DNA of 64,000 nt, taken from the NCBI GenBank assembly GCA_947368535.1, contig CANBHY010000002.1, forward strand, positions 95,536 through 159,535. Direction: 5' to 3'. The translations under genes and the position numbers were made by a program. Under the pieces are notes generated by a model. That model ran no database searches and was not told where the DNA came from. It worked only from the letters and a program-made list of their open reading frames with translations. The first letter of the stretch is position 1. Each line of letters begins with the position of its first letter. This DNA comes from an uncultured Clostridium sp. (GTDB lineage Bacteria; Bacillota; Clostridia; TANB77; CAG-508). Of the stretch, positions 24,645 to 50,107 are shown one piece after another.

Positions 24645-24800
24645 ATGAACAAAAAATCAAAAAATTTTTCAATTAAAAATACAATTTCATCATTATACGA
24701 AGTTGAACATTTTTTAAACAGTTATAATACATTTTCTGATGCTGTTTCAATACTAAAAATATTAAAACACAGAAAAAATAAAAAAACTAAACAAAATTAA
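24645..24800 (+). CDS. small hypothetical basic protein (51 aa), below the ORF-track cutoff
   Basis: ATG preceded by AAAGGTGA RBS at ideal spacing. Translation is MNKKSKNFSIKNTISSLYEVEHFLNSYNTFSDAVSILKILKHRKNKKTKQN. It overlaps the stop of the convergent gene by 4 nt. Confidence 0.3.
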   Translation: MNKKSKNFSIKNTISSLYEVEHFLNSYNTFSDAVSILKILKHRKNKKTKQN

Positions 24801-25345
24801 TTATCTCTTTTGGTAAAGCTATCTTTTAATGCTTCTATTTGCTCACCATTAATAAGAATTTTAACACTTGAAATATCTTTGAATTCTAAAAGAGTATCAA
24901 CTACAGAATAAACTCTATTTTTAAACATTTCTGGATTTTCATCACAATCTTTTGCAAAATTCTCATTAAAGTCAATCTCTATCTCTTCTCCATTTAGAGT
25001 TGTAAGATTTAAAACTGTTCCTTCCGGAATAGTATTTTTTAAATTTTCATCTTCTGATCCTTCGATTAAAAAATTAATTACTTTCTCATATGGGTTTTCA
25101 ATTAATTCTTTTGCATCAATATTTCTTGCTTCAGGTACTATTTCTCCAGTTTTATTATTAACAAAATATAATGTAACTATTGTCATTCTATTCTGCTCAT
25201 CACTAATTTCCTGCTCAGGAACATACTCTAATACGGTGTTTGCCTCGTTATTATCTTTAATTTCAATATTATTAAATATAGCTATCCCTACTAATACTAC
25301 AAATAAAATCAATACAACAATATAAACAATCTTTTTCTTGCTCAT
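24797..25345 (-). CDS. GerMN-domain-like membrane-anchored protein
   Basis: N-terminal TM anchor. TLYFVNNKTGEIVPE...LIEG region resembles the GerMN (germane) domain. Confidence 0.45.
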   Translation of the reverse strand: MSKKKIVYIVVLILFVVLVGIAIFNNIEIKDNNEANTVLEYVPEQEISDEQNRMTIVTLYFVNNKTGEIVPEARNIDAKELIENPYEKVINFLIEGSEDENLKNTIPEGTVLNLTTLNGEEIEIDFNENFAKDCDENPEMFKNRVYSVVDTLLEFKDISSVKILINGEQIEALKDSFTKRDN

Positions 25346-25536: not shown

Positions 25537-28500
25537 ATGTCAGAATTATTACATGTAGGATTAGATGTAGGTTCAACAACAGTAAAAATCGTTGTAATGA
25601 ATGATAAACAAGAAACAATATATACAAACTATACTAGACACTTTTCAGATACAAAAAATACAATATGTAATGTCTTAGAACAACTATCAAAAGATTATCC
25701 AGATGCTACATATACAATGGCTCTTACTGGTTCTGGAGCCATGTCAGCAGCTAATTTTTTAAAAATACCATTTATACAAGAAGTTATATCTTGTAAACGA
25801 GCTGTTGAAAAATATTTGCCAGAAACTGATATCGTTATTGAATTAGGTGGCGAAGACGCTAAAATCATATATTTTGATAAATTTATTGAGCAAAGAATGA
25901 ACGGAACTTGCGCTGGTGGAACAGGTGCATTTTTAGATCAAATGGCATCATTATTAAATACCGATACAGCAGGACTTAACGAATTAGCAAAAAGCTATAA
26001 AGTTATTTATCCAATTGCATCAAGATGCGGTGTATTTGCTAAAACTGATGTACAACCACTTTTAAACGAAGGTTCTAGAAAAGAAGATATTGCTGCATCA
26101 ATTTTTCAAGCAGTTGTTAATCAAACTATCAGTGGTTTAGCTTGTGGCAGACCAATTAGAGGAAAGGTTGCTTTTCTTGGAGGACCACTTAGTTACCTTC
26201 CAGAGCTTAGAAAACGTTTTATAGAAACACTTGAATTAAAAGATAATGAAATTCTTATTCCTGAAAATGCTCATCTTTTAGTAGCTAAAGGAGCAGCTCT
26301 AGATTCATTAAATTCACCAGAATTTTCAAATTCTCAATTAAAAGAAAAAATTAAAGATTTAAAAGTTGCTAAAGATACGACTACTAAGCCATTAGATCCT
26401 CTTTTTTCTAACGAAGAAGAATATAAAAAATTCAAAAAAAGACATGACAAAGCAAAAATTAAAACAAAATCCCTAGAAAAATATACTGGTGACTGTTTTG
26501 TTGGAATTGATGCTGGTTCAACTACTACAAAATTAGTATTAATAGATACTGATAAAAATTTACTTTATTCTGACTATAAAAGCAACGAAGGCAATCCACT
26601 AAATAGCGTTATAAAAATGCTAAAATCTATGTATGAAAAATTACCTGAAACTGCTAGAATTAGATTTGCTGGAGTAACTGGCTATGGTGAAAAATTAATT
26701 CAAACAGCTTTAAATGTTGATTTAAATGAAATTGAAACAATAGCTCATTACACAGCAGCAAAAGAATTTATGCCAAATGTTACTAGTATCATTGATATTG
26801 GTGGACAAGATATGAAATACATAAAAATGAAAGAAGACGTTATAGACAATATAATGCTAAATGAAGCATGTTCTTCTGGATGTGGATCTTTCATTGAAAC
26901 TTTTGCTAAAAGTTTAGGTTTAACCATCGAAGAATTCGTAAAATCTGCTATTGATTCAAAGGCTCCTGTAGACTTAGGCTCAAGATGTACAGTATTTATG
27001 AACTCAAAAATAAAGCAAGCACAAAAAGAAGGTTACAGTGTTGGCGATATTTCTGCTGGTCTTTCTTTTTCAGTAGTAAAAAATGCTATTCAAAAAGTTA
27101 TGAAAGTCCGTGATATGAAAACTCTTGGAAAACACATTGTTGTACAAGGTGGAACATTCTACAATGATGCTGTTTTAAGAAGTTTTGAAATATTAGTAGG
27201 ACAAAATGTAATTAGACCAAATATATCTGGATTAATGGGTGCATACGGTGTTGCACTACTTTCTAAAGAACAATTTGAAGCAAATTTAGATATGGAATAT
27301 ACTTCAACATTACTAAAAACAGAAGAATTAGATAATCTAAACATAAAAACAACACAAGTACGTTGTGGAAAATGTGAAAATAATTGTCTATTAACCATAA
27401 ATAAATTTAATGATAGTAAATCATTTATATCTGGAAATCGCTGTGAAAAAGGAAGCGGTGGAATTACTGAAAACAAAAATCTACCAAACATGTATAAATA
27501 TAAATTTGAAAGATTATTTGGATATGAGCCATTATCTGAAGAAAAAGCCTTCAGAGGAACAATTGGAATACCTAGAGTTCTAAATATGTATGAAGATTAT
27601 CCATTTTGGTTTACCTTCCTAACAAACTTAGGATTTAGAGTAATTCTTTCAGAAAAAAGTACTAGAAAAACATATGAAAAAGGTATGGAATCAATGCCTT
27701 CGGAATCAGTATGTTACCCTGCTAAATTAAGTCATGGACATATAATGGATCTTCTAGAAAAAGGTATTAAAACAATATTCTATCCTTGTATTCCTTATTC
27801 AAGAAAAGAATATCAAAAAGCAAATAACCATTATAATTGTCCAATCGTAATATCATATTCAGAAGTACTTAAAAACAACGTAGAAGACCTTAAATCTGAA
27901 AATATTAAATTCATTAATACATTTTTACCTTTCGAGATAAAAAACCTCGTAAAAGTCATTTTAGAGCGTGATGAATTTAAAGAATATAATTTTACTAAAA
28001 AAGAATTAACTGAAGCAGCAAAAAAAGCAGAAGAAGAGTATCAAAATTTCAAAAATGATGTCGATAAAAAAGGTCAAGAAATACTAGATTATATGAACAA
28101 AAATGATTTACGAGGAATTGTTCTTGCAGGAAGACCATATCACGTAGATCCAGAAGTAAATCATGGAATTGATACATTAATAACTAGTTTAGGTCTATGT
28201 GTTCTTTCAGAAGACAGTATATCTAAAAAAACTGAAGCAAAAAGACCTATCAGAGTAGTTGATCAATGGGTATATCATGCCAGACTATATGCTGCAGCAG
28301 AATTTACAGGTCAACATGATAACTTAGAACTAATACAATTAAACTCTTTTGGATGTGGCGTTGATGCTGTAACAACAGACCAAGTAGAAGAAATATTAAA
28401 AAGTTATGAAAATATGTACACTCTAATCAAAATAGATGAAGTTAATAACTTAGGAGCAGTCAGAATACGTATTCGTTCACTACTAGCTAGTATGAATAAG

Positions 28501-29820
28501 AAAATAAAAGAAAAGTCAGAAAGACAAACTTGTGAAGATTGTAAGTCCGTAGGAGATTATGAACTTCACCCTATAGAGTTTACTAAAGAGATGAAAAAAG
28601 ACTATACTATTTTAATTCCTCAAATGGCCCCAATCCATTTTGAATTAATAGAAACAGCCGTTAAATCTTGTGGATATAATGTAGAGTTATTAAGAAATTG
28701 CACACCAAATACAGTTGAAACAGGATTGAAATATGTAAATAATGATGCATGCTATCCTTCAATTTTAACTACGGGTCAAATGATTGAAGCCTTAGAGTCA
28801 GGTAAATATGATCCAAATAAAACAGCCTTAATAATGTCTCAAACTGGTGGAGGTTGTAGAGCAACTAACTATATTGGATTTATAAGAAAAGCTCTAAAAG
28901 ACGCCGGTTTCTCACAAGTACCAGTTATATCATTTAATGTGGTTGGTATGGAAAAAATGTCTGGATTTAAAATTACAATTGGCTTAGCAGAAAGACTACT
29001 AAAAAGTGTTACCTATGGTGATTTACTTCAAAAATTATTAATGAAAAATCGCGCATACGAAATAAACAAAGGTGAAACAGAAAAATTATATGAAAAATGG
29101 TTACAAAAATGTAAACAATTAGTTAAAAAATCAAATAGTAAACAATTTAAACAAAGCATTTATGATATTGTAGAAGATTTTGAAAAAATAGAATTAGACA
29201 CAAGTATACCAAAACCTAAAGTTGGTATAGTTGGAGAAGTCTTAATAAAATATCATCCTTTTGGAAACAACTTTGTAGCCAACGTTTTAGAAAAAGAAGG
29301 TGCTGAAGTAATATTACCAGACTTTATGGGATTTATAAAATTTATAGCAACTCATAAAATAACATTTAATAAACTATTAAAAATAGATAAAACAAAAGCA
29401 ACCATCTTTAGAGCAGCTATAAAATTAATAGATATTTTTGAAAAAGATTTAAAAATTGCCTTATCAAAATCTAATAAAAACTACCTGCCACCTTGCGATA
29501 TCTGGCATTTAGAAAATAAAGTAAAAGATATTCTATCTATTGGAAATCAAACTGGTGAAGGTTGGTTCCTAACAGCAGAAATGGTAGAATATATAGAACA
29601 TGACATTCCTAATATCGTTTGTGTTCAACCATTTGCATGTCTTCCTAACCATATTGTTGGAAAAGGTGTAATAAAAACTATTAGAGAAACTTATCCAAAT
29701 GCTAATATTACACCAGTTGATTATGATCCTGGAGCAAGCGAATCAAACCAAACTAATCGATTAAAATTATTAATGACAGTTGCAAAAGATAATTTAAAAA
29801 CAGAACAAAATAAAAAATAA
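25537..29820 (+). CDS. acyl-CoA dehydratase activase-related protein (two BadF/BadG/BcrA/BcrD-type ATPase domains fused to an HgdB-like domain)
   Basis: Two ASKHA-type ATPase N-termini (LHVGLDVGSTTVKIV and CFVGIDAGSTTTKLVL), two Cys-rich segments, and a long C-terminal dehydratase-subunit-like region. 1427 aa. GGAG RBS. Confidence 0.75.
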   Translation: MSELLHVGLDVGSTTVKIVVMNDKQETIYTNYTRHFSDTKNTICNVLEQLSKDYPDATYTMALTGSGAMSAANFLKIPFIQEVISCKRAVEKYLPETDIVIELGGEDAKIIYFDKFIEQRMNGTCAGGTGAFLDQMASLLNTDTAGLNELAKSYKVIYPIASRCGVFAKTDVQPLLNEGSRKEDIAASIFQAVVNQTISGLACGRPIRGKVAFLGGPLSYLPELRKRFIETLELKDNEILIPENAHLLVAKGAALDSLNSPEFSNSQLKEKIKDLKVAKDTTTKPLDPLFSNEEEYKKFKKRHDKAKIKTKSLEKYTGDCFVGIDAGSTTTKLVLIDTDKNLLYSDYKSNEGNPLNSVIKMLKSMYEKLPETARIRFAGVTGYGEKLIQTALNVDLNEIETIAHYTAAKEFMPNVTSIIDIGGQDMKYIKMKEDVIDNIMLNEACSSGCGSFIETFAKSLGLTIEEFVKSAIDSKAPVDLGSRCTVFMNSKIKQAQKEGYSVGDISAGLSFSVVKNAIQKVMKVRDMKTLGKHIVVQGGTFYNDAVLRSFEILVGQNVIRPNISGLMGAYGVALLSKEQFEANLDMEYTSTLLKTEELDNLNIKTTQVRCGKCENNCLLTINKFNDSKSFISGNRCEKGSGGITENKNLPNMYKYKFERLFGYEPLSEEKAFRGTIGIPRVLNMYEDYPFWFTFLTNLGFRVILSEKSTRKTYEKGMESMPSESVCYPAKLSHGHIMDLLEKGIKTIFYPCIPYSRKEYQKANNHYNCPIVISYSEVLKNNVEDLKSENIKFINTFLPFEIKNLVKVILERDEFKEYNFTKKELTEAAKKAEEEYQNFKNDVDKKGQEILDYMNKNDLRGIVLAGRPYHVDPEVNHGIDTLITSLGLCVLSEDSISKKTEAKRPIRVVDQWVYHARLYAAAEFTGQHDNLELIQLNSFGCGVDAVTTDQVEEILKSYENMYTLIKIDEVNNLGAVRIRIRSLLASMNKKIKEKSERQTCEDCKSVGDYELHPIEFTKEMKKDYTILIPQMAPIHFELIETAVKSCGYNVELLRNCTPNTVETGLKYVNNDACYPSILTTGQMIEALESGKYDPNKTALIMSQTGGGCRATNYIGFIRKALKDAGFSQVPVISFNVVGMEKMSGFKITIGLAERLLKSVTYGDLLQKLLMKNRAYEINKGETEKLYEKWLQKCKQLVKKSNSKQFKQSIYDIVEDFEKIELDTSIPKPKVGIVGEVLIKYHPFGNNFVANVLEKEGAEVILPDFMGFIKFIATHKITFNKLLKIDKTKATIFRAAIKLIDIFEKDLKIALSKSNKNYLPPCDIWHLENKVKDILSIGNQTGEGWFLTAEMVEYIEHDIPNIVCVQPFACLPNHIVGKGVIKTIRETYPNANITPVDYDPGASESNQTNRLKLLMTVAKDNLKTEQNKK

Positions 29821-29825
29821 AAAAA

Positions 29826-29856
29826 ATGGATAACTTAGGTTATCCATTTTTTTTCG
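29826..29856 (+). terminator. rho-independent terminator of the activase gene
   Basis: TGGATAAC ttag GTTATCCA followed by TTTTTTTT. Confidence 0.75.
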
Positions 29857-31039
29857 CATTCTAGATAAAAATTTTTGTTTTCAAAATTATAAATATAAAT
29901 TTTATATAAATATCTTTAAAACATCAAGCATTTTTATAGAAAATCCCCTAAATATTTAAATATTACATCCACTTTTTCTATCCTATTTAACTCTTAATTT
30001 TATATATATAACAATTTTATCTTCAATCATTATATCATCTTTGTCTTTCACGTACTGTTTTTGTTTTGTTACATAAAAAATTGGCATCTAAAAAAAATTT
30101 TTCATTTTTCTTTTCAACATAAGTATTATTTTTAAAAGTTTAAAATAATTAATTTTTATCAGTGACTTTATATTAAAAAAAATAAAAAGCAAAATGTTTT
30201 AAAAAAAATACCCTAAATAATTCAATTTAAGAACATTCTTTTAATCTTTAAAAGCTAGTAAACATGGGAAATTTGTGCTAAAAAGATTATTTCAAAAATA
30301 TTTAAAATGTTGCAAACAAAAATCCTTGCAAAAATCGAATATTATATTTTAATGATAATTAACATTAACCTTTTGACAAAAATCAATTAAAACGGAAAAT
30401 AAAAGGTCAAATAATTTTATCTCAAAAAAATTTATGGACAACTCATCAAATCATAAAAATAGTGTAGCTTATATTTTTTTATCCTCTAAAATTTTTTCTC
30501 TATCATTTTTTATTAGTAATTATTTTCTTCAAAATTGCTTTTACTCTAAAAAATTTAATAAAAATAGCAATTATTACATAAAAAATATAAAATAATTATT
30601 ATAAAAATAATTAAATAATAAAAAATAATAATTATTCTTACTTTTTCGCATAAAAATACGATTTTTAAAGCATTTATTACAGTTAAATTCGAACATCTAT
30701 CAATATCAAATTTTCACTCTTTTAAAAACAAATTTCAGTAAAAAATAATTTTTTTCCTTAAATAGCAAAAAAAATTTTTTTCTCGATCAAAAATCCGAAA
30801 TTTTTTTAGTCAATATGATTTTCCCATATATCTCATCTAAATTACTAATTTAAAAAAAGCTATTATTCTAATCATTCATTTTAAAATTTATAAAATCTCA
30901 TCAAAAATATAAAAATATCACCATATACAAAATAGAAAAACTAAAATAATGCTTAATAAAATATAATCGCTATATTATAGGAAATAAGCAAACTAGCAGA
31001 TTTTATATAATTATGGATATGCTTCAAAAATAATATTAA

Positions 31040-31054
31040 TTGCCAAAAAAGTAG
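31040..31054 (-). repeat. 15-nt motif copy (reverse complement CTACTTTTTTGGCAA)
   Basis: Read directly from the sequence: TTGCCAAAAAAGTAG. Confidence 0.6.
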
Positions 31055-32458
31055 TTGTGCTCCTTTCTCTACATTCAGCATAGAAATGACAATTTAAAAT
31101 AGATAAATAAGTCATCTACTTTTTTAGAAATCTTGTTATTAAAATGAAATGACAAATCAAAAATGCACATTTTATAAAAATTTTATTGCTCTTATAAAAC
31201 AAATAGCATATTTTTATTTTTTAAAATAAAAACTCTACTTTTCATGAATTTTAAATTACAATAAAATAATATTTATAAAAAACGTATGTTTGTTTTTGAA
31301 TATTTTTTAAAAATATAGCCTTAAATTCTTCATTTATGTTATGTATACTTATTATTTTTTAAAAAATATCTAAAAATTCAACCTTAGTTATACCAAGCAT
31401 TTCAAATTTTATATACTTTAATATTCTTTCATCTACATTTATATTTACATAATTCTTAATAATATCAAATTACATCAATTTTTTTGATTACCCGATCTTC
31501 TCTATCATATACATATATTAAGTCAAAATATATTTTAAAAAAGACTAAAAATTAAAATTTTTATTTTTCTCTATGCATTTTTAAAAAATTTTAATTTTTA
31601 GACATACTTACTATTTTTTTAAATTATCCTACAAATTTAAAAATATTATAAAAAAGATAATTCTTAAAAAAATCACGTCAAAATTATCCATTTTTTAAAT
31701 TTATTCATTTTTATAATATTCAATCAAATATAGGATTTACAAGCTGTATACGTTTTTTATATAAATGTAATAATGAACTTTTCAAAATTGTTTGCAAAAA
31801 ATAAAATGAAAATCAGAGAAATATTTTTAGTTATTTTTGAGTCAATCAATAATAAAATTTTTTAATTAATTGGCAATTATTTTTATTTAAAATACATACC
31901 TATGACAAAAATAACTTAAAATATAATCCAATTAAAAAATACTTTAACTTTTTACCTTATTTTTAATTTTTATATCTATTTATTCAAAAATACTAAATAT
32001 TACACTAATATAGCATAATATTCAATTAATAATTTATTTATTTATTTTTTTAATGTAAACTTACTAAAAAAAGCTGCTTTTTTTGGTAAAAATCTATAAA
32101 ATTCATATATAGTATTACACTAAATATGATAATTTTTAAAAATTTTTCTAAAAATATACAAATAACACTACTCATTAATATATAAACCTACATTAAATTT
32201 TTTATATACCAAAACAATATATTTTTTAGTCATACGTTAATCAATCCTCTTTTTATGCTTCAAAAAATATTTTTTAATATTTTTTTCTCGTTTTCATTTT
32301 TAAAAATGCAAAATACATATTTTATTTATAAAAAAAAGTTTTAAAAAAATTATGCTTTTTTTCACTTTTAATGTCCAACTTCAATTCATTAAATATGCGG
32401 AAATAAAGATAATTCAAAAAACAGTATATTTTTATTATATATATTTTTTTTAATTTTA

Positions 32459-32473
32459 TTGTCAAAAAAGAAG
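32459..32473 (-). repeat. 15-nt motif copy (reverse complement CTTCTTTTTTGACAA)
   Basis: TTGTCAAAAAAGAAG. Confidence 0.6.
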
Positions 32474-34053
32474 TTTCAAATTATAACTGAATTAAAACTT
32501 TAATAGACAAAAAAAGAAGCATCTCATTTCAGTTACAAAACTAATTTCTATTCTTATTAAAGTAAATGACAAATAAAAACTGTAAAAAAGCAGTAATATT
32601 TTTTAATATATCTTTTTATCATTTTAAGAATGAAAATCGAAATTTGAAGCATAATTTAAAAATTACAAATTTTTTTCCAAAAAATAAATATAAAAAAATA
32701 AAATTTATTTTTTTATATTTATTTTTATTAAAATCTATTTTCCTCATTTTTGCTCTATTTTTTTATTTTTGAAAAATAATATCTTTAAGCTATCTATTAT
32801 TTTTAATTTGTTTCGCTTACCGCTCTAAGAGATAGTTAGCTAATCTTCAATTTTTAATCTCTCATGCAAATATATTTTTTAGACTAATTGCCAATATTTC
32901 CTTAAAATACTCTTTTTATAAAATATTACACTCTATTTTGACCAATTTATTTTCTTTTTATTATATAAAGATTTATAAAAATTTATAAAAATTTATTTAT
33001 ACAAAATCACCAATTTTTATAAACTAATTATTATTATTTAGGCAAAATATATTTTTTATCAATTTTTATTCTTTATTCTATAAATTTTATATATTTATAA
33101 ATTTGATAAAAATTTTTTATAATTCTTTACATAAAAATAATAATTTAAATTTTAATAAATCAAAGGAAAAAAAGATCAAAAATTAATTATTTTAAATTTT
33201 TTTAAGCTTAGGGTAAAACCGCAAAATCTTCGGAATATCAACCAAAAGAGCTATTTAATATATTTGTAAAAATTCTCCAAAAAAAATTCTTTGCAAAAAA
33301 ATAAAAATAAAAATAAAGCTAAAAAATATAAAACATAGTGACAATTAATTTATATTCCTCTCATATAAGATGTCAAACATTTTTATAAATTATAATTAAT
33401 GTAGACAAAGTATTTATATTTATTTATTAATAAAATCATCTTAGCTAAAAATTTTAACCCTATTTCATTTTTATAATTCAGATCATATAATTTCATATCT
33501 AACATAAATTTAATGGTAATAAAATGAAATATTACAAAAAAAAACTATTAAAATTATATTTTCAATTTAATTTGAATTAAAATATATACAAAAAGTCAAA
33601 AAATGATATTTTCAAAAAAATATAAAAAATAAAATTAATTAAATATTACAAAAAAAATATTATTTTTAAATAAATATTACCATTTTTTTAGTATCAAAAA
33701 GATGTTTAAATATACTACTTAAAAATTTATAAATTATATACAAATCATCACCTATTTTATGTAACCTAAAATTAATATTATTAGCAAAACATTTTAATAA
33801 ATTTTTATTTAATTTTTTTGTGTCCAAATAATCAACACAAATTTTTAAATATAGTTTTAAAAATTTTAAAAATAACTTTTTTTAATATTACAATTAGATT
33901 TAAAAAATGTACACATTTAAAAAAAATTTATTGAAAGACAAAAAATAGTAAAAATCAGTAATATTATTTTTTTTTGTTTTCTGTGAAAGTTGGGATATAA
34001 GTGATAAAGCCGTTTTAATAAATAAAATGAAAAATTTACTTTATTTTATAGCT

Positions 34054-34068
34054 TGTCAAAAAAGGAGA
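34054..34068 (-). repeat. 15-nt motif copy (reverse complement CTCCTTTTTTGACAA)
   Basis: TTGTCAAAAAAGGAG. Confidence 0.6.
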
Positions 34069-35129
34069 TTACTAATATAAGAAAAATGTATACTAATTGG
34101 ACAAAAAAACATTTAAAAATTTAAAAGAAAATATATTAATTAAAATAATTATTCAATTGAACAGACAAAATCTTTCTAAAAAAAGATTAAATATTCCCCA
34201 AAATGCTTTTCAGTATCGAATATATGTTCTCCACTCTTTAAAGTTAAATAAAATAGTAGTTTTATTTAACTTTAAATCAAAAAAAATTAATAATTCTAAT
34301 GTTACAATACACAGTTTTTTAAAAAATATTTTTTTCTATTTTTTTAATTATTTATCTATTTTTTTTAATTTTTTTTAATTATTTTTAATTATTTTTAATT
34401 ATTTAATTTATTATTATAAATAATTATTAATTTATAATAAAATATCTAATAATTATTTATTTAAATATAAAAAAAATCATAGCTAGATATCCTAAATAAA
34501 TTTTTTAAACTATATGCATGAAACGCATGTGAAAATTTTTAGCCCTTATTTTCGTTTTTAATCAATTTTATTAAAAAAAAGTACCAATAATATTAATATT
34601 ATTAATAGATATTTACGTATTATAATGAAAAATTGATAAAAAAAAGAACCCAAATCATAAATTAATTGGATTCTACAATAAAATAAAGCTCATTTATGTG
34701 TAAATACATAAATCATCTCTCATAATTATCAATACTTTAATTATATTTTATAAATTAACTGTATAACAATTGCTTATTAAAATATAATTATGTAAAAATA
34801 ATTATTGATTAATAATCATTTTTTAAACTATGAAAAATAATTAAATAATTAAAATAAAATATTATTGATTAATTTAATAAATATTTAACATTTAATTCTA
34901 TAAAAATTAAATCATATTTATTAAATTTTTATAGAATTATTCTAAAATTATTAGTCAATAATAATGTTTTATTTGTATCCATTTTCCTGTTTCAACACAC
35001 TATACATATTTCACATTTTTTGTCTATATAATATAAACTTATGCAAAAAGTATTGTTTTTTAAGAAAATTTTATATGAATTTGATCATTTTTTTGTCTGA
35101 TATTAAAATTTTTTTATTAATTATTATCT

Positions 35130-35144
35130 CTACTTTTTTGACAA
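35130..35144 (+). repeat. 15-nt motif copy CTACTTTTTTGACAA
   Basis: Exact. Preceded 38 nt upstream by TTTTTTTGTCTGA. Confidence 0.65.
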
Positions 35145-36139
35145 ATATTAAAAGTTCAGCTTTGTGATTATTATCTATATTTATTAATATATCTGCATTA
35201 TATAATATTCGTACAAATTTATTGTTATAGATTTTTAAATTTAAAACTACATTTTCTTTTAATTATTTTCCACTATTTTATAAAATTTCCTAAAAATGAA
35301 TTTTTTTTCTTATAATCTTATATAAATTTGTATTCAAAAAACAATATTTTTTATTATCATCATTTAGTATTAATAACTTAGTAAATAATTGTATTTTTTT
35401 TACAAAAATTATAATAAATTATCCACAGATAATATCAAACAAGTTTTCTCTTATCAAAAATATTTTTTCTAATTATTTCAAATATATTTTTATTTTTTTA
35501 TATTTTTTATTAATTATTTTTAATTTATTTTTATTTTTTATTTATTTATTTTTATTTATTTATTTTTATTTATTTATTCCATGCACAAATTTATATATTT
35601 TTTACTTCAAAAATTAAAACCCTGGTTCCAAATTAATTCCAATTTATATATATTAATCTTTCTAAAATTTTTTTACATTATATCTCTTTTTATAGTCCGG
35701 ATAAAAAATAAAATTCCAAATTTAAATATTATTTTTTTCATACCTCTCTCTTACTATAGTATCACATACAAATTTTAATTCATATATTACTAATCATTTT
35801 AAATATTTTAATCTCTCAATTTATATATTTTTAAATTAATTATTTATATTTTTTCAATAATTATTAAAAAAATAATTAAAAATAATAAAAAAATAAAAAT
35901 AATTATTTTATTTATGAAAATTTTTCGTAATATTAAATTTTATATTATCAAAATATGTTTTTATTGATTTTATTGATCAGATCTATAAATTTTAAAATTA
36001 TGTACTAAATTATTATTTTATATAGTTTTTTTGTCTAGTTGGCAGCTGAATAAACATTTTGAGCATACAATTAATCATTTAATGTCAAAAAATGCTGTTT
36101 TTTTGTCTAGCTACGAAATAATTTTAATATTTCACAATT

Positions 36140-36154
36140 CTACTTTTTTGACAA
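36140..36154 (+). repeat. 15-nt motif copy CTACTTTTTTGACAA
   Basis: Exact. Preceded by TTTTTTTGTCTAG at 36095 and 36026, and by an inverted TGTCAAAAAAT at 36074. Confidence 0.65.
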
Positions 36155-37083
36155 AAGTTTTTACTGTTTTTTTATTATTGATGCATGTATTCATTGATAT
36201 ATAGATGTTTGACGTCATATATGTTTAAAATAGATTTTGTTTTTTGTAAAATTTTCAAATTTTCCTTCCTAATATATTTTATATTAAAAAATTTTTTTCA
36301 CTTTTATAGCTTTTAATCCTAAAAAAAAGAAAATTTTTTGAAAATTCCTTCCAAAAAATTCAATTTCATATTTTCACAAATTTCTTTACTTTCGCCATTA
36401 AAAAAACTATTATTCTAACCTTTAAGAATAATCAAATAATTAATAAAAGTATTACAAAAATAAAAAGATATTTTTACTAATTATTTTTATTTTTTTATTA
36501 TTTTTCTAAAATAAATTAATTAATTCTATTTTTTTATTTAATTTTTTTATTTAATTAAAATATATTTTCACTCATTTAATAAATTGCACTTTGATTTAAT
36601 ACCTTTTAAAAATTTTTTTATAAATAAGTTTCATAATTATAGAAATAGTAGATCAAGTTGAACTATACTTTATCAATATTTATATTTTTCTATATATTTT
36701 TCCATTTCTTTAAAACATTGAACTTATTTTTATTATAATATTTTTTATATAATTATAAAATTAAACTTATATAATAAAATATTTAATATTATTTTTCCAT
36801 AATTAATTAAAATATTATTTAAAAATAAAATAATAAAATAAAATTATTAATCTTTTATTTTATATTTATATAATATTTATTTATTATTTATGATACTGTA
36901 ATTTTCTCACTTCTTTTCAATAAAAATACACTATTTATTATCTATAACATTTCGGTTTAAAAAACTAGTATTTTTGTCTTTTAAATTATATATTGTTCTC
37001 ATTGTAACTTTTTTATATTATATTTCAATAAAAATATAATATTTTCTTGTCTTATATTTATTTTTTTTAACCATATTTGTTAT

Positions 37084-37098
37084 CTACTTTTTTGACAA
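37084..37098 (+). repeat. 15-nt motif copy CTACTTTTTTGACAA
   Basis: Exact. Confidence 0.65.
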
Positions 37099-38099
37099 TT
37101 TTTATTCACATCACATTAAGTGTTCACCATATTTCCTTTGAAATTTGTGAGTTTCATGAATTTTATCTTAGAAAATTTATATATTTTTCAAATTCTATTA
37201 TTATATTCATCATATTTTAATTTATAAAAATTCTTAAAAACTTAATATTCCGTTTTAAAAAACAATTTTTAGAAAATTTACTAAGAATTTTTTAATAAAA
37301 TTTTACTATCTAAATTTCTCCAATTTTAAGGCCTTTTTTATATCAAAATTTATAACAATATAAATTATCTTTTTACTATATTAATATTTCATTTTTTTAA
37401 ATTTAATATTTTTATTTTTCATATTTTTTTAATATTTTTCTATTTATTATTTATATTTATTCTTTATTTTATAATTAATTTAAATTAATTATTTATTTAT
37501 TAAAAATTGTATATACTTTTGTATACATAATTATTTTTAAGATCAAAAATTGATCTTTTTTTTAATATTTTCTTATATGAAAATTTATAAAAGAAGATTT
37601 ATTTATACTTTTTTTATAATATTGGAATAAAACTTCTAAAATTTTAAAAATATCTTTTTATTTTTAAACTAAATTTTTATAAAAAAAGCAAAATTATATT
37701 TAGATTTTTAATAATACAAAATAAATTTTACTATTAATAAAAAAAATATCTAAAAAAATAATAATAAATTATAAAAAATTAAAATATTTTTTGTAATAAA
37801 TTTTAATTTTTATTTTCATCAATAAATTAAATTTTGAATATATTTTTATAATATTATTGGAATAAATTTCATAATTTTATGCAACTTTGAATACTCAATA
37901 ACATAACTTTTTTTACTTTAGAAGTTTTCTTCTGGCTAAATTTTCATTCACACTTTTTCACAATTCTTTCTACAATACTTCAGAGTATTTTGTCTTATGT
38001 ATATTTATTCTTCTATAACAGAACTTATATAATTCAATTTTTTATATTTTTTAGTTCATTTTTTGTCTAATATAAAATATTTTTGTTTATTTCTTAAAT

Positions 38100-38114
38100 C
38101 TACTTTTTTGACAA
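38100..38114 (+). repeat. 15-nt motif copy CTACTTTTTTGACAA
   Basis: Exact. Preceded 36 nt upstream by TTTTTTGTCTAA. A possible -10 TATTAT lies 17 nt after the embedded TTGACA. Confidence 0.65.
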
Positions 38115-39273
38115 ATATTTTTTAATATCCTATTATATATATTCGATATAAGTCCCATATTTAAAGTATTTTGAACTATTACTATACTTTTTAATTACTA
38201 CCTTTTCTTAATTTTTATTAAATAATTTATAATTTTTAAAATTATAAATTATACACTTAATCAAATTCGATTTATTTTTAAAGAAATTTAAAACACATTA
38301 TTCAAATTTTCTAAAAACTTTCTATCTTTTATTAAAAATCTCATATGTATATGTTTTCAAAACACATTCGTACATATGTTCTTAATATTTTTTAGTCAAA
38401 TTGATATGTTATAGTATATTCTTATTAATTACTTTTTTTAATTAAATATAACAACATATTTTGATATTTATTTTAATACATAAAAACTAATAGATTATAT
38501 TTTTATTTTTCTATATTTTATTATTTATTTATTATTATTTTTTTTATATTTATCTTTATTTTAAATATATTTTTTATTTTTTAAAAAAATATATTTTTTT
38601 ATTCCCTCAACTAATATAAAATTTTTCATTTTTTCCATATTATTCTTTATTTTAAATTTATAAATCAAAACTTTAAAATTTTTTCCTAAAATTTTTAAAT
38701 AAAGATACTTATTTCTTACAAATTTAATTTGATATTTTCTAATCTTTTTTCATAATCAGCAATTTTAAAAAAATAATTAAAGAATTTTTTTTTATTTTTT
38801 TAATAAATCCATTTTTTTATATTAACATTCAATTCATTTTTTATAAAATATAAATAATTATTCCTAATTTTTAATATATTTTTTTGTTTTTTTATTTTTA
38901 TATCAATTTATAAAATATTTATTAATTTAAATACTTTTTAAAAAATTAATTACTACGCATTTATTTTCTTAGTTTCAAATTTTGTACTACTCATTCTTCT
39001 TAAATTTGACCAGTTATATATATATGAATTTATATAAGATTTACTTGTCATTCTGTCAATATTTCTCTAACTATAATTAATACTTTATTTATGTTAGTCG
39101 ACAAATACCAAACATATTTTCTTAACTACTTCTATAAAATTTATTTACCCTCATTCTATTTTTATACTTATTTCCCTTTTAAATATATTACTTTTTCTTA
39201 CTTTAGCCATTTTATTAGTTACTTACTCTAATTTTCTTGACTAAAAAATTTATATTTTTTAATTTTCTCTAAA

Positions 39274-39288
39274 CTACTTTTTTGTCAA
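39274..39288 (+). repeat. 15-nt motif copy CTACTTTTTTGTCAA (variant)
   Basis: One mismatch. Preceded by TTCTTGACTAAAAAA. Confidence 0.55.
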
Positions 39289-41080
39289 ACATTTTTTAAA
39301 TAGTATCTTTAATAATATTCTATAACTCCCTATTTATAAAGATTTCATAAGTATACTCAATATAATCATGATCCATTTTTTCTATTTTAAGCATGCTTTT
39401 ACATTAATTTTAAAATTATAAATTATAAAAACTCTCTTTTTAAAAAAAATCTACTAATACAACTGCAAAGAAATTTCTAATCTAACTTTAAACATATTTC
39501 TAATCTCAAATTTTTTTTTGTCGTTTTTTCATTTATTCGAATTAAAAACGCAACCTAGTCAAATTGATAATAATTTATTCTTATCTTATTCATTTTTTAT
39601 TTCATTACTGCGAACAAATGTATTCGCATACATCTTTGATTAAAAATTTTTTTCTTCAGATAAAACTATTCTCTTTTATAAATATTCTGTATAGTTTTTA
39701 TTTAAAAACATTTTTTATTATTTATTTTATTTTTTGATATTTATTTCCTTATTTAAGTTTTTCAACGCATTATTTTCGTTTTTTTTTTGATTTTTATAAA
39801 AATTTCAAGTAATTATATTCCAAATTTCTATCAGTAAATAGTCTAAAATAATAATTTATTATATTTTTTACTGTTTATTTTATTATTTGATTATAAAAAC
39901 ATTTATAAATAAAAAATAAAAATATTTATTTTTTATTTTTTTAAATGTAATATTAAATGTATTTCATTTATTATTTATATTTTATATTAATAAATATCAT
40001 ATTGATCTATTTAATATGTTTTTTTATATTAATAAAAAAACATTGTCTAAAACATTAAAAATATCTTTTTTTAATGCTCATTTTTTATATTTTATTGTCT
40101 ATTATCTTAATATTTTTCCATTTTTTTCTTTCTACTTATTTGTCAATGAATTTTTGCCATTAAAAAACGCATTTAATATAAATCCTCTAATATCAACACT
40201 TTAATACTTATTTATATATTTTTTCTTAATATTTTTATACCAAACTTATTTATTCATTTAATCTTTCATTAATTTTATTAAAAATTTTCTTTTTTAAGCC
40301 TCTAAAAAAATATAAAAAAATTTACTAATCTACTTCTCAAATTAATCAATTTTTTTTATGCTATTTTTCACATACTATTATTTAATTATTCTTTTTTGAT
40401 ATTATAATTTCTAATTTTCATGTAATATTTTCCATATCTTTTATCTTTATTTTTTAATTAAATTTTATAATTACAAAATAAATTTCATTTATTTATTTTA
40501 TTTTTTTATATTTTTTAAATATTGATATATCAGCAAAAAATTAATTTAAAATTATTTATTAATTATTTTTTCGATATTTTTTTAATTAATTAATATTATT
40601 AAAATATTTACTTTTCAATATGTAATATACCTCTTATTTTCCTTTATTTAAAAGCATTCTACGATGTAACAATTAACATTTAAAAATTTATTTTAATTTT
40701 ATTTTTTTAATTATTCATGAAATTATTAAAAAATATTTTTTAATAATTTTTAAAATTAACTTTTCTATTTTTAAAATTCACATTTTATACACAAAAAAAT
40801 ATAAAATAATTTTAAATAAAAAATTTATTTTATATTTTAATATTATTTCCTATTTTTTTTATATTTAGTTTTTTAATATCAATTTACGATAAATATATAT
40901 CATTTTCCAAGCCTCTAAAATCGTCATATTTTGATTTTCAATATAAACAAATAATATATGTCATATTAGTATATATTTATATTATTTTTGGATTCTCGTA
41001 GCTTCTATATTATTTTTTAAAATTAATACATAATAAACAAAATATATAAAAAAAAAGATAGTACATTCTTGTACTATCTT

Positions 41081-41172
41081 TGGCGGAGATTGAGGGATTT
41101 GAACCCTCGCGGCCCTAAACGAACCCTAACAGTTTAGCAAACTGTCCCCTTCAGCCACTTGGGTAAATCTCC
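41081..41172 (-). tRNA. tRNA-Ser (anticodon GCU)
   Basis: The reverse complement reads GGAGATTTACCCAAGTGGCTGAAGGGGACAGTTTGCTAAACTGTTAGGG...GGGTTCAAATCCCTCAATCTCCGCCA. Anticodon loop is TT-GCT-AA. Long variable arm, T-loop GGTTCAAATCC, encoded CCA. Confidence 0.85.
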
Positions 41173-41211
41173 GTATAATTATAAAGCTAGATAGTATTTC
41201 ATATCTAGCAT

Positions 41212-41303
<92 letters not shown>

Positions 41304-43488: not shown

Positions 43489-43639
43489 AATAATCCCTCC
43501 AATCTTTCTTTATTATAATATAAAAATTATAATCCTCTGTCAATAAAATTTATAATTATTTTACCCATATTTTTATTTTTTTAATATTTTTATCCTCAGA
43601 TTTTTAAATTTTTTAAAATATTTATACACAAAAATGTGA

Positions 43640-43700
43640 AAATGATAAAAAATTATCCACAGATTATCAACATTTTATCAACAGGTTATCTGTGGAACAT
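43640..43700. promoter_or_regulatory. DnaA-box cluster between parA and rsmG
   Basis: Perfect TTATCCACA at 43653-43661. Two TTATCAACA boxes (one mismatch each) at 43664 and 43675. TTATCTGTGGA at 43686. Confidence 0.55.
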
Positions 43701-43714
43701 TATTTTTTTCATTT

Positions 43715-44434
43715 TCATTTTAATGGTTCTTTAATAGGTTTTCCTTGTTTTCTTGGGTATATTTGTTCGGTATGTTTTTCCTTTAAAATAACTATTATAC
43801 TGCGTCCATTCCCATTTAATTCATATTGTATTTTCTTCTCTATTTTGCCTCCTAAAATCCTAATTGCATTTTTCGATTCTTCTAATTCTTTATCCACATC
43901 TGGTCCTTTTAAACATATACATTTTCCACCTTTTTTTAAAAATGGTAACATATATTCCACTAAAGTTGTCATATTTGAAACAGCTCTAGAAACTACAATG
44001 TCATATTTTTCTCTATATTTTTCATCATGTGCCAAATCTTCTGCTCTACTATGAATAGCAATAATATTATTTAAATTTAATTTTTCAATTGTGTCATTCA
44101 TAAAATTTACTTTTTTATTAACCGCATCCAATAAAGTAATATCCATGTCATTGTTAACAATTTTTATAGGAATTCCTGGGAATCCTGCTCCCGAACCTAA
44201 ATCTAACATTTTATTTCCTACAATTTCATCTTTTATAACTATTGAATCAATAAAATGTTTTATAACAATGTCTTTTTTCTCTTTTATTGCAGTTAAATTT
44301 ATTTTTTCATTCCATTCTATCAAATTATTCATATATAAATAAAATAATTCAATTTGTTTTTCTGAAAGATTTATATTATTTTTCTTTGCTTCATTTTTAA
44401 TAAAATCTTTAATATCTTCCATATTACTCTCCAT
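43715..44434 (-). CDS. rsmG: 16S rRNA (guanine527-N7)-methyltransferase
   Basis: SAM-binding [12 protein letters not shown] motif. Position immediately downstream of mnmG. Confidence 0.85.
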
Positions 44435-50054: not shown

Positions 50055-50075
50055 TTTTCCTACTTACCATAATTG

Positions 50076-50100
50076 CAAAAAAGGGCGCATCTTCGCCCCT
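50076..50100 (-). terminator. rho-independent terminator after rpmH
   Basis: On the minus strand, AGGGGCGAAGATGCGCCCTTTTTTGCAATT. This is a GC stem followed by a T-run. Confidence 0.6.
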
Positions 50101-50107
50101 ACTTCAA

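What the first reader, a model, noticed from the sequence alone, without database searches (positions are those of the whole stretch)
29857..41080. 11.2-kb ORF-free, hyper-AT 'desert' next to the chromosomal origin cluster
Bacterial genomes are about 85-90% coding. Elsewhere in this window, intergenic spacers are 20-250 bp. Here 11.2 kb has no credible ORF on any strand. The only ORFs of 60 aa or more are F/I/L/K/N/Y low-complexity strings. Composition is much more AT-rich than the flanking genes. The region sits between a normal gene with its terminator (29826-29856) and the 3' end of tRNA-Ser, a classic island integration site. It is not featureless: it carries conserved motifs, half-site pairs, tandem repeats and a perfect DnaA box, described in the separate findings. 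Candidate explanations are (i) a decayed integrated element, (ii) a locus of long non-coding transcripts, (iii) an origin-proximal structural or protein-binding array, or (iv) an assembly artefact. None of these is a standard annotated feature class.
Basis: seen in the sequence. Interest (0 to 1): 0.85.

Follow-up and report, generated by a model that had tools for sequence, protein, structure and literature searches.

The report
Gene-free AT-rich repeat array near origin
An 11-kb stretch with no genes in an uncultured mouse-gut Clostridia genome is a real, inherited array of about nine ~1-kb repeat units, each keeping one small conserved cluster of sequence boxes, so it resembles eukaryotic satellite DNA, which is very unusual for a compact bacterial chromosome.

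Summary
Window 29857-41080 is 14% GC. It has stops in all six frames, no codon periodicity and no Pfam or Rfam hit. It recurs at 97-99% identity in three independent assemblies.

It is not featureless. Nine diverged units of 0.9-1.6 kb form two inverted arms. Each unit keeps a ~130-bp core of co-oriented boxes: TTTTTGTCT, 73 bp, TTTTTTTGTCT, 45 bp, CTACTTTTTTGACAA. There are 7 tripartite matches against 0.002 expected.

Between strains the bulk diverges about 4x faster than the neighbouring genes, with frequent indels. The boxes diverge 3-4x slower than the bulk. A sister species has the same architecture and boxes but is otherwise unalignable.

Every sampled relative has a hyper-AT tandem-repeat tract at the same place, between tRNA-Ser(GCU) and the activase gene (1.2 kb to more than 10 kb). 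An outgroup has none. The AT-richness matches mutation pressure: four-fold sites are 7% GC.

Foreign island, assembly artefact, CRISPR or integron array, DnaA-box or parS cluster, structured RNA and sigma-70 promoter array were each tested and not supported.

Best reading: a long-lived bacterial satellite locus whose constrained box clusters act on DNA as protein-docking sites. That function is inferred, not shown.

The parts
29857..41080 (.). Whole non-coding hyper-AT tandem array (11.2 kb, 14% GC)
   Evidence: composition, stops in all frames, no period-3 signal. (same sequence in three independent assemblies).
35016..41046 (+). tRNA-proximal arm: six units in + orientation. Box III to box III spacing is 1010, 944, 1016, 1174 and 858 bp. 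The + strand is T-rich and the strand co-oriented with the tRNAs is purine-rich.
   Evidence: HMM hits at 35078-35151, 36091-36163, 37033-37105, 38052-38122, 39227-39297, 40088-40154. (skews).
29857..34171 (-). Distal arm: three units in - orientation. Box III spacing is 1594 and 1419 bp. The last ~1.2 kb is a degenerate tail.
   Evidence: HMM hits at 34117-34048 and 32523-32449.
34172..35015 (.). Switch region between the two inverted arms. Box orientation and AT skew flip here. It contains period-10 simple repeats at 34327-34444.
35016..35144 (+). Core P35: box I 35016-35025 (TTTTTTGTCT), box II 35088-35098 (TTTTTTTGTCT), box III 35130-35144 (CTACTTTTTTGACAA)
36026..36154 (+). Core P36: box I 36026-36036, box II 36098-36108, box III 36140-36154
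36971..37098 (+). Core P37: box I 36971-36979, box II 37043-37052 (TTTCTTGTCT), box III 37084-37098
37988..38114 (+). Core P38: box I 37988-37995, box II 38059-38068, box III 38100-38114
39233..39288 (+). Core P39: box II 39233-39242 (TTTCTTGACT), box III 39274-39288 (CTACTTTTTTGTCAA). Box I is degenerate.
40043..40146 (+). Core P40 (most degenerate copy): TTGTCT at 40043-40048, box II 40091-40100, box III 40132-40146 (CTACTTATTTGTCAA)
34053..34171 (-). Core M34: box III 34053-34067 (CTCCTTTTTTGACAA), box II about 34098-34109, box I about 34162-34171
32459..32576 (-). Core M32: box III 32459-32473 (CTTCTTTTTTGACAA), box II about 32504-32515, box I about 32566-32576
31040..31160 (-). Core M31 (degenerate): box III 31040-31054 (CTACTTTTTTGGCAA), a box I-like TTTGTCA near 31151
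35460..35578 (.). Example of the simple-sequence (period 10-14) filler inside units. Others lie at 37372-37503 and 38498-38582.
   Evidence: (filler is 8-10% GC, cores are 16-19% GC).
41054..41303 (-). Right boundary: tRNA-Ser(tga) 41212-41303, tRNA-Ser(gct) 41081-41172, and the terminator hairpin 41054-41081. This boundary is conserved in all relatives.
29819..29854 (+). Left boundary: terminator hairpin of the 1427-aa activase-type gene (25537-29820)

Best explanation
The tract is a long-lived, vertically inherited, non-coding tandem-repeat locus, in effect a bacterial satellite. It fills the convergent interval between the tRNA-Ser pair and the activase gene, about 9-20 kb from dnaA/oriC.

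Shown:
- It consists of about nine units of 0.9-1.6 kb arranged in two inverted arms.
- Most of each unit is simple-sequence-rich filler. The filler evolves at about the neutral rate and sits near the genome's extreme AT mutational equilibrium.
- Each unit keeps a ~130-bp core of three co-oriented boxes (T-tract followed by GTC/GAC, spaced 73 and 45 bp). The core changes 3-4 times more slowly than the filler and is shared with a sister species in which the rest cannot be aligned.

Inferred:
- The array grows and turns over by replication slippage and unequal recombination between units.
- The box clusters work at the DNA level as cooperative docking sites for a sequence-specific DNA-binding protein. 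Together they would form a multi-site nucleoprotein domain beside the origin, serving as an anchoring or organising platform or as a titration sink.
- The AT-rich filler serves as spacer.

The protein is not identified.
For: Real and reproducible.

Non-coding.

Unit and box architecture:
- 15-mer CTACTTTTTTGACAA: all nine matches with 0-2 mismatches lie inside the tract.
- A 67-nt family recurs at ~1-kb spacing.
- TTTGTC occurs 19 times against 2.5 expected, and TTTGAC 13 times against 1.9.
- Box spacing is 73 and 45 bp in P35, P36, P37 and P38, and 62-64 and 45 bp in M32 and M34.
- Tripartite regex: 7 observed, 0.002 expected in 1000 shuffles, 0 in the other 52.8 kb of the window.

Constraint:
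- Between strains the tract shows 3.2-4.3% SNPs and 3-4 indel events per kb. The adjacent genes show 0.9-1.1% SNPs and no indels. The motif windows show 1.1-1.3% SNPs and no indels.
- The divergence minimum lies in the 50 bp between boxes II and III.
- In the sister species the genes are 87-91% identical. Identity decays to background within a few hundred bp of the tRNA, yet seven box clusters in the same two-arm order are retained.

Persistence of the locus:
- Hyper-AT tandem tracts follow tRNA-Ser(gct) in all eight lineages sampled. These include a fully assembled 5.6-kb tract and an ancestral-looking 1.2-kb tract with two 540-bp repeats.
- An outgroup has an ORF 120 bp after the tRNAs.

DNA-level rather than RNA-level action:
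- The boxes are direct repeats with no complementarity.
- Core folding z-scores are about 0 on both strands.
- No Rfam hit.
- No internal terminators, and promoter-like sites occur at the chance rate.
- The -35-like TTGACA of box III has no -10 partner above background.

AT-richness explained by mutation pressure: four-fold sites are 7% GC, other intergenic DNA 22%, and the tract 14%.
Against: - No binding protein is identified, and no expression or binding data exist.
- The box sequences are lineage-specific. A profile of boxes II-III finds only this species and its sister, weakly a third (E=0.74), and nothing in lineages D-G, which have their own repeated boxes. Whatever is conserved clade-wide is therefore the architecture, not the site. 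That is also what a selfish or neutral satellite would show.
- The constraint estimate rests on few substitutions (6-7 observed against about 18-23 expected per strain pair).
- I could not search the rest of this genome for the boxes, so a regulon link is untested.
- The 45-bp spacing is not an integral number of helical turns.
- A-tract phasing is no stronger than in the flanks, so a purely structural curved-DNA role is unsupported.
Confidence: 0.45

Rival explanations
1. Neutral or selfish satellite. The convergent tRNA-Ser/activase interval is a permissive site where AT-rich simple sequence keeps expanding by slippage and unequal crossing-over faster than deletion removes it. On this reading the boxes serve only the array's own propagation (for example as recombination or slippage hot spots), or they are relics. 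The host gains nothing.
For: - The bulk evolves at about the neutral rate with many indels.
- The composition lies between four-fold sites and ordinary intergenic DNA.
- Unit sequence, satellite period (7, 10 or 11 bp) and boxes differ between lineages. Units are homogenised to different degrees, nearly identical in D and 65-85% identical in E, as in concerted evolution.
- Tract length ranges from 1.2 kb to more than 11 kb.
- There is no sign of a gene, an RNA or a known binding site.
Against: - Concerted evolution homogenises whole units. Here only ~130 bp per unit is conserved while the rest is beyond detection by nhmmer. The same boxes also survive in a sister species.
- The boxes show fewer SNPs and no indels.
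- All eight lineages sampled retain a tract despite the usual bacterial deletion bias (established knowledge).
- The two-arm mirrored polarity recurs in three lineages.
Confidence: 0.3
2. Array of non-coding transcription units. Each unit would make an unstructured AT-rich RNA. Transcription would either run outward from box-associated promoters or run inward as purine-rich read-through from the flanking genes. The boxes would be promoter or regulatory elements.
For: - Box III contains a perfect -35 hexamer, TTGACA, preceded by a T-tract. One copy (38108-38136) scores 11 of 12 as a sigma-70 promoter.
- Each arm is purine-rich on the strand that is co-oriented with its flanking gene, like the sense strands of genes here.
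Against: - -10 hexamers downstream of box III match no better than background (mean 3.4 against 3.6 of 6).
- There are 152 promoter-like sites against 154.5 expected, and no internal terminator.
- Both flanking transcription units end in strong conserved terminators.
- Folding is no better than shuffles.
- No Rfam family matches.
- There are no conserved small ORFs.
Confidence: 0.12
3. Remains of mobile DNA integrated next to tRNA-Ser, such as an ICE, an integrative element or repeated Tn7/Mu-type transposon ends. All genes would since have decayed to mutational equilibrium.
For: - The location is next to a tRNA gene.
- In relatives with 80%-identical activase, conjugation-type genes (T4SS pilin-like, VirB4/TraG ATPase, large cell-wall hydrolases) directly follow the activase.
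- One lineage has an IS200-type transposase between the two tRNAs.
- The window carries a VirB4-like remnant between gyrB and gyrA.
- Read from the outside inward, both arms show GACAAAAAAGTAG-type direct repeats. From memory, these resemble the multiple subterminal transposase sites of Tn7.
Against: - No ORF or domain remnant is present.
- No tRNA-derived att repeat of 11 nt or more is present.
- There is no similarity to phage or plasmid records, and no box arrays occur in viral contigs.
- Six consecutive cores share one orientation instead of alternating as left and right ends would.
- The tract is syntenic and present in all lineages, including one with only 1.2 kb.
- In lineage D the array coexists with ordinary island genes rather than replacing them.
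- The boxes are under constraint.
Confidence: 0.07
4. Assembly or sequencing artefact: a collapsed or chimeric low-complexity region.
For: Many short-read contigs of relatives break inside this locus, so it is hard to assemble.
Against: - Three independent assemblies give the same 10 kb at 97-99% identity, with ordinary SNP and indel differences.
- Three further assemblies of the sister species agree with one another.
- Another lineage is assembled right through, from the tRNA to the activase.
Confidence: 0.01

Closest known systems
Eukaryotic satellite DNA with a conserved protein box (for example alpha-satellite monomers carrying the CENP-B box; from general knowledge)
   Same: Head-to-tail AT-rich non-coding units. 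Very fast, lineage-specific sequence turnover at a fixed chromosomal locus. Variable homogenisation between units. A short conserved box in otherwise diverged units.
   Different: This is a bacterial chromosome. Units are about 1 kb with a tripartite ~130-bp core. The total is only 1-11 kb. The array has two inverted arms. There is no evidence of a role in segregation.
Plasmid and phage centromere or iteron arrays (F sopC, R1 parC, tubC, replication iterons; from general knowledge)
   Same: Clusters of co-oriented direct repeats that are read by a DNA-binding protein cooperatively. The position is next to partition genes (parAB) and near an origin.
   Different: Known arrays are contiguous 10-43-bp repeats spanning 0.1-0.5 kb. 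Here three boxes are spaced 45 and 73 bp apart, and the cluster recurs every ~1 kb over 11 kb. No adaptor-protein gene is linked to it. The chromosomal ParB has a canonical helix-turn-helix.
Origin-proximal titration loci (E. coli datA, B. subtilis DnaA-box clusters; from general knowledge)
   Same: A non-coding, origin-proximal locus thought to act by binding many copies of one protein.
   Different: DnaA boxes are not enriched: 3 of the 39 near-consensus boxes in the window fall in the tract. The size is about 10 times larger. The boxes are unrelated to the DnaA box.
tRNA-linked genomic islands and ICEs
   Same: The tract abuts tRNA-Ser. The same interval holds conjugative-element genes in some relatives.
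   Different: There is no integrase, no att repeat, no ORFs and no foreign similarity. The tract is present in all relatives and is explained by the host's own mutational bias.
CRISPR arrays and integron cassette arrays
   Same: A conserved repeat alternates with variable sequence, and the array has polarity.
   Different: The repeat is a ~130-bp tripartite direct-repeat cluster, not a 24-48-bp repeat or a palindromic attC site. The 'spacers' are ~0.8-1.4 kb of simple sequence. There is no cas or intI gene in the window.

Membership tests
Genomic island or integrated mobile element at a tRNA gene | Integrase, recombinase or other mobility genes, or their pseudogene remnants | tested here: not met
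   No frame longer than 105 codons. Stops are even in all frames. There is no period-3 signal. The ORFs tested have no Pfam hit.
Genomic island or integrated mobile element at a tRNA gene | Direct repeat of the tRNA 3' end (attL/attR) at the far boundary | tested here: not met
   No shared word of 11 nt or more between either tRNA-Ser and 29701-41050, on either strand.
Genomic island or integrated mobile element at a tRNA gene | Patchy distribution among relatives and composition foreign to the host | tested here: not met
   A tract is present at the same locus in all eight lineages sampled. Its 14% GC lies between host four-fold sites (7%) and ordinary host intergenic DNA (22%).
Satellite or tandem-repeat DNA | Head-to-tail units of similar length | tested here: met
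   Box III spacing is 1010, 944, 1016, 1174 and 858 bp on the + strand and 1594 and 1419 bp on the - strand. Relatives have units of about 0.54, 0.82-1.03 and 1.05 kb.
Satellite or tandem-repeat DNA | Non-coding, rapid lineage-specific turnover, partial homogenisation within arrays | tested here: met
   (non-coding). (units cannot be aligned between units or species except at the boxes). (near-identical or 65-85% identical units in lineages D and E).
Protein-binding repeat array (centromere-, iteron- or operator-like) | Clustered short repeats at fixed spacing and orientation, above chance | tested here: met
Protein-binding repeat array (centromere-, iteron- or operator-like) | Purifying selection on the repeats relative to the surrounding DNA | tested here: met
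   Motif windows diverge by 1.1-1.3% against 3.2-4.3% for the tract, with no indels. The divergence minimum is between boxes II and III. The boxes are retained in the sister species. The counts are small.
Protein-binding repeat array (centromere-, iteron- or operator-like) | A cognate protein that binds the repeats | not testable with these tools
   There are only resemblances. TGTCAAA/TGACAAA matches 6 of 7 positions of the Spo0A 0A box TGTCGAA, but it lacks G5, whose mutation lowers affinity about 10-fold (PMC3485338). The reverse complement TTTGWCAAAAAAG resembles an old AbrB consensus, WAWWTTTWCAAAAAAW, that later work did not uphold (PMC3025583).
parS / ParB centromere | 16-bp palindrome TGTTNCACGTGAAACA | tested here: not met
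   No site with 3 or fewer mismatches to the three parS variants scanned (TGTTTCACGTGAAACA, TGTTCCACGTGAAACA, TGTTTCACGTGGAACA) in the tract or anywhere in the window. With N at the fifth position, one 3-mismatch chance-level match lies outside the tract at 48029.
DnaA-box cluster (datA-like) | Enrichment of TTATCCACA-type boxes | tested here: not met
   There are 3 boxes in 11.2 kb, which is below the window average. The real clusters lie at 43590-43898 and 52045-52126.
Non-coding RNA gene(s) | Match to a known family, or a stable or conserved secondary structure | tested here: not met
   Rfam finds nothing at the gathering threshold or at E<=1. Mean folding z-scores are -0.03 and -0.33 for 16 cores on the two strands.
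Non-coding RNA gene(s) | Promoter and terminator bracketing each unit | tested here: not met
   Promoter-like sites occur at the chance rate, and there are no internal terminators. No -10 element partners box III above background. Actual transcription is not testable here.
CRISPR array | 24-48-bp repeats, 26-72-bp spacers, cas genes nearby | tested here: not met
   The repeat cluster is ~130 bp and the intervals are ~0.8-1.4 kb. The ORFs in the window are housekeeping-type or unrelated.
Tn7/Mu-type transposon ends | Inverted left and right ends, each with several subterminal transposase sites, plus transposase genes | tested here: not met
   Six consecutive cores share one orientation. There is no transposase in the tract. 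The similarity of the box to TnsB sites is recalled from memory only.

The most novel reading that the evidence does not exclude
The array is a regional, satellite-based chromosomal element beside oriC. It would be a bacterial counterpart of a regional centromere or origin-anchoring domain. Fast-evolving box clusters would co-evolve with a DNA-binding protein to organise, anchor or segregate the origin region, for example during sporulation. This would occur in a clade that has no canonical parS anywhere in the dnaA-parAB-tRNA-Ser stretch, although an outgroup has two perfect parS sites there.
Probability: 0.1. Interest if true: 0.9.

Novelty: new variant of a known kind. Interest (0 to 1): 0.66.

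Why it matters
Bacterial chromosomes are thought to purge useless DNA quickly. A gene-free block of 1-11 kb is about 0.6% of a genome of roughly 1.8 Mb, judging from a closed relative. It is kept at one locus across a whole clade of gut Clostridia, so it either has a function that current annotation cannot see or shows that satellite-like DNA can persist in bacteria.

If the constrained box clusters dock a protein, the locus would be a new kind of origin-proximal chromosome-organising or titration element.

There is also a practical point. The locus systematically breaks short-read assemblies of these abundant mouse- and human-gut organisms.

Tried and rejected
- Alternative genetic codes. Reassigning stops gives no frame-specific ORFs.
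- Curved-DNA hypothesis. A-tract phasing at 10-11 bp is no stronger than in the flanking genes.
- DnaA titration locus and parS or ParB neocentromere. There is no parS. The ParB helix-turn-helix (GKGRSTITNTLRIL...EGH) looks canonical against solved ParB structures, so a change of specificity is not indicated.
- Sigma-70 promoter array. In one search the first four sister-species copies were mis-registered by 3 nt, so only this species' copies are used.
- Structured RNA.
- Small conserved ORFs. Visual and alignment checks of the tRNA-proximal 700 bp across seven loci show that only the tRNA terminator and a short GACGATTTTAGAGG-like block are shared, with no conserved reading frame.
- An apparently conserved 570 bp after the tRNA turned out to be a BLAST extension. 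Identity decays steadily from 77% to about 60%.
- Single-unit nhmmer searches find only themselves.
- A profile of boxes II-III does not reach lineages D-G.
- Plasmid and phage BLAST gave only compositional matches to endosymbiont plasmids.
- tRNA-derived att repeats: none.
- Literature searches found no description of such a locus.
- I could not reach the tRNA side of the closed 1.84-Mb relative, because its DUF4446 protein was not among the retrievable hits.

Full report
**Observation**

Window 29857-41080 is bounded by two terminators. On the left is the terminator hairpin of a 1427-aa BcrAD/DUF2229 activase-type gene (25537-29820; hairpin 29819-29854). On the right is the terminator that follows two tRNA-Ser genes on the minus strand (tRNA-Ser(gct) 41081-41172, tRNA-Ser(tga) 41212-41303).

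GC is 12-18% per kb inside the tract and 25-32% outside it. On the plus strand G is 4.7% and C is 9.7%.

The tract does not code for protein:
- The longest stop-free frame is 105 codons.
- The three stop codons are spread evenly over all six frames, and no reassignment of stops creates frame-specific ORFs.
- The codon-period signal is 0.6-2.2, against 39-81 for neighbouring genes.
- The ORFs tested have no Pfam hit.
- Rfam finds only the two tRNAs, even at E<=1.

The surrounding genes place the tract about 9-20 kb to the left of oriC. They run DUF4446, parB, parA, rsmG, mnmG, mnmE, jag, yidC, rnpA, rpmH, then dnaA at 50501, dnaN, recF and gyrB. The cumulative GC-skew minimum lies at about 50-51 kb.

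**Not an artefact**

The flanking DUF4446 protein led to independent assemblies: two NCBI MAGs and one JGI metagenome. They carry the same 20 kb, including about 10 kb of the tract, at 96.8-99.0% identity. The differences are ordinary SNPs and small indels.

**Anatomy**

The tract is a diverged tandem array.
- The 15-mer CTACTTTTTTGACAA (box III) occurs four times exactly and five more times with 1-2 mismatches. All nine copies are inside the tract.
- About 45 bp upstream of each copy lies TTTTTTTGTCT (box II). About 73 bp further upstream lies TTTTTGTCT (box I); this spacing is 62-64 bp in the minus-strand units.
- TTTGTC and TTTGAC are the most over-represented words, at 19 against 2.5 expected and 13 against 1.9 expected.
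- A tripartite pattern matches 7 times. The expectation from 1000 composition-preserving shuffles is 0.002, and there are no matches in the remaining 52.8 kb of the window.

Six cores lie on the plus strand between 35.0 and 40.1 kb, spaced 858-1174 bp apart. Three lie on the minus strand at 34.1, 32.5 and 31.0 kb, spaced 1419-1594 bp apart. The array therefore has two inverted arms that meet at about 34.2-35.0 kb, which is also where the AT skew changes sign.

Between cores the sequence is simple-sequence-rich filler of 8-10% GC, with period-10 to period-14 repeats. Whole units no longer detect one another with nhmmer.

**Evolution within the species**

Against two strains, the tract shows 3.2-4.3% substitutions and 3-4 indel events per kb. 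The adjacent 9 kb of genes shows 0.9-1.1% substitutions and no indels. That is roughly the ratio expected for unconstrained sites. The 67-nt motif windows show 1.1-1.3% substitutions and no indels. Averaged over units, divergence is lowest in the 50 bp between boxes II and III. The counts are small, but they point to constraint on the cores only.

**Composition**

Four-fold degenerate sites of the flanking genes are 7% GC. Ordinary intergenic DNA in the window is 22% GC. A 14% GC tract is therefore what this genome's own mutation pressure produces in weakly constrained DNA. It is not evidence of foreign origin.

**Relatives**

| Lineage (identity to this window) | Loci | What follows tRNA-Ser(gct) |
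|---|---|---|
| Sister species: mouse-gut MAG MGBC126950, 'uncultured Clostridia bacterium' (DUF4446 89-90%, genes 87-91% nt) | L005, L015-L017 | At least 9.7 kb at 10-21% GC. Four cores in one orientation next to the tRNAs, then three in the other. Same box sequences. Identity decays from 77% to background within a few hundred bp of the tRNA. |
| DUF4446 75% | L007 | Contig ends 2.4 kb into the hyper-AT tract |
| DUF4446 66% (human gut) | L010-L012, L018-L021 | Contigs of 47-344 kb all end 1-3 kb into the hyper-AT tract |
| Activase 90% | L155, L156 | Contigs end 217-413 bp past the activase, in a hyper-AT repeat |
| Same 66% lineage, sequence detail | L010 | Nearly identical ~1.05-kb units with period-11 satellites |
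| DUF4446 60% | L022 | 0.82-1.03-kb units that are 65-85% identical, with period-7 satellites |
| DUF4446 55% to lineage D | L159 | Fully assembled 5.6-kb tract (~10% GC) from tRNA-Ser to the activase. AT skew flips in the middle. It has its own repeated boxes. |
| DUF4446 47% | L013 | Only 1.2 kb, containing two ~540-bp repeats, then the activase |
| Outgroup (GC 40-50%) | L006 | An ORF starts 120 bp after the tRNAs |

The locus is therefore ancestral to the clade, expanded in place, and turns over rapidly.

The tRNA-proximal arm is purine-rich (57-70%) on the tRNA strand in every lineage.

A profile of boxes II-III recovers only this species and its sister. It finds a weak hit in a third lineage and nothing further out. 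The box sequences are therefore lineage-specific, while the architecture is shared across the clade.

**What it is not**

- Island. There are no mobility genes or remnants and no att-type repeat of either tRNA. There is no similarity to phage or plasmid records. The distribution is vertical. The interval can nevertheless host islands. Relatives with 80%-identical activase, including a closed 1.84-Mb long-read contig, have conjugation-type or other accessory genes right after the activase. One lineage has an IS200-type transposase between the two tRNAs.
- DnaA-box cluster. Only 3 boxes fall in the tract.
- parS. No site is present.
- Curved DNA. A-tract phasing is no stronger than in the flanks.
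- Structured RNA. Folding z-scores are about 0 on both strands.
- Sigma-70 promoter array. Promoter-like sites number 152 against 154.5 expected. There are no internal terminators. The TTGACA of box III has no -10 partner above background.
- Wider occurrence of the boxes. Exact-pattern scans of viral and metagenome contigs returned only single chance matches, apart from the sister species.

**Mechanism**

Shown: the tract is a long-lived tandem array. Its filler evolves neutrally, and its cores, three co-oriented direct repeats at fixed spacing, are conserved.

Inferred: the array grows and turns over by slippage and unequal recombination. The cores act on DNA as cooperative docking sites for a sequence-specific protein, giving a multi-site nucleoprotein domain beside the origin. 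I put this at about 0.45.

The main rival, at about 0.3, is a neutral or selfish satellite with no host function. The lineage-specific boxes and the variable length favour it. Three things count against it: conservation is confined to the boxes, the boxes are retained in the sister species, and no lineage has lost the tract. An RNA-producing array (about 0.12) and decayed mobile DNA (about 0.07) remain possible.

**Candidate binders are leads only**

- TGTCAAA/TGACAAA matches 6 of 7 positions of the Spo0A 0A box TGTCGAA. It lacks G5, whose mutation lowers affinity about 10-fold (PMC3485338).
- The reverse complement TTTGWCAAAAAAG resembles an early AbrB consensus that later work did not uphold (PMC3025583).
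- The organism looks like a spore-former. The window encodes SpoIIR-like, GerM-like and AbrB-like proteins.

**Comparison and novelty**

The closest analogy is eukaryotic satellite DNA with a conserved protein box. The closest bacterial analogies are plasmid centromere or iteron arrays and origin-proximal titration loci such as datA. The tract differs from all of these in unit size, spacing, total length and box sequence. I found no description of such a locus in the literature searched.

I rate it a new variant of a known kind: tandem-repeat, protein-box arrays. It is unusual enough in a compact bacterial genome to deserve follow-up, but its function is unproven.

Noticed in passing
window 56601-61230: gyrB (54672-56600) and gyrA (61231-63675) are separated by a 4.6-kb very low-GC insert (16-23% GC per kb). 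It holds four ORFs: a 529-aa VirB4/TraG-type ATPase (57902-59491) and three ORFs with no Pfam hit. This looks like a decaying fragment of a conjugative element in a normally tight gene pair.
   Followed up: partly
whole window; L001, L005, L007, L010, L013, L022 versus L006: No parS site (3 or fewer mismatches to three TGTT[T/C]CACGTG[A/G]AACA variants) occurs anywhere in the 64-kb origin region, or in the dnaA-parAB-tRNA stretch of any clade member. The outgroup L006 has two perfect parS sites flanking parAB (7688, 9833). The ParB helix-turn-helix here looks canonical.
   Followed up: partly
window 43590-43898 and 52045-52126: DnaA boxes cluster between parA and rsmG (six boxes, two of them perfect) and between dnaA and dnaN (three boxes). 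No box with 1 or fewer mismatches lies upstream of dnaA, in 50054-50500.
   Followed up: no
L151 14459-24320; L152-L154 downstream of the activase: In relatives with 80%-identical activase, the gene is followed directly by accessory or conjugation-type genes: patatin, 1250-1683-aa cell-wall hydrolases, a T4SS pilin-like protein and a VirB4/TraG ATPase. The tRNA-Ser/activase interval is therefore also an island site in the clade.
   Followed up: partly
L157 10805-11709; L022 10683-11093: Some lineages have genes inserted between the two tRNA-Ser genes: an IS200-type Y1 transposase plus a DUF4190 protein (L157), or DUF4190 alone (L022).
   Followed up: no
L004, L007, L010-L012, L018-L021, L155, L156: Public short-read contigs of these organisms, up to 344 kb long, end within 0.2-3 kb of entering this locus from either side. 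It is a systematic assembly breakpoint.
   Followed up: yes
window, four-fold sites of 35 genes: Four-fold degenerate sites are only 7% GC (C 5%, G 2%), and the sense strand is A-rich at these sites. This is an extreme AT mutational bias for a free-living gut Clostridia genome.
   Followed up: yes
window 22682-22936 (+), 18597-19202 (+), 24797-25345 (-): An 84-aa AbrB/SpoVT-type protein lies next to rsmI- and yabB-like genes, as in Bacillus. SpoIIR-like and GerM-like genes are also present. The organism is probably a spore-former.
   Followed up: no
window 40906-40925 (- strand) and the equivalent positions in L005, L007, L010, L018: A short block, GACGATTTTAGAGG, about 170 bp past the tRNA terminator is shared by four lineages, although the surrounding sequence is not. 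No conserved ORF follows it.
   Followed up: partly
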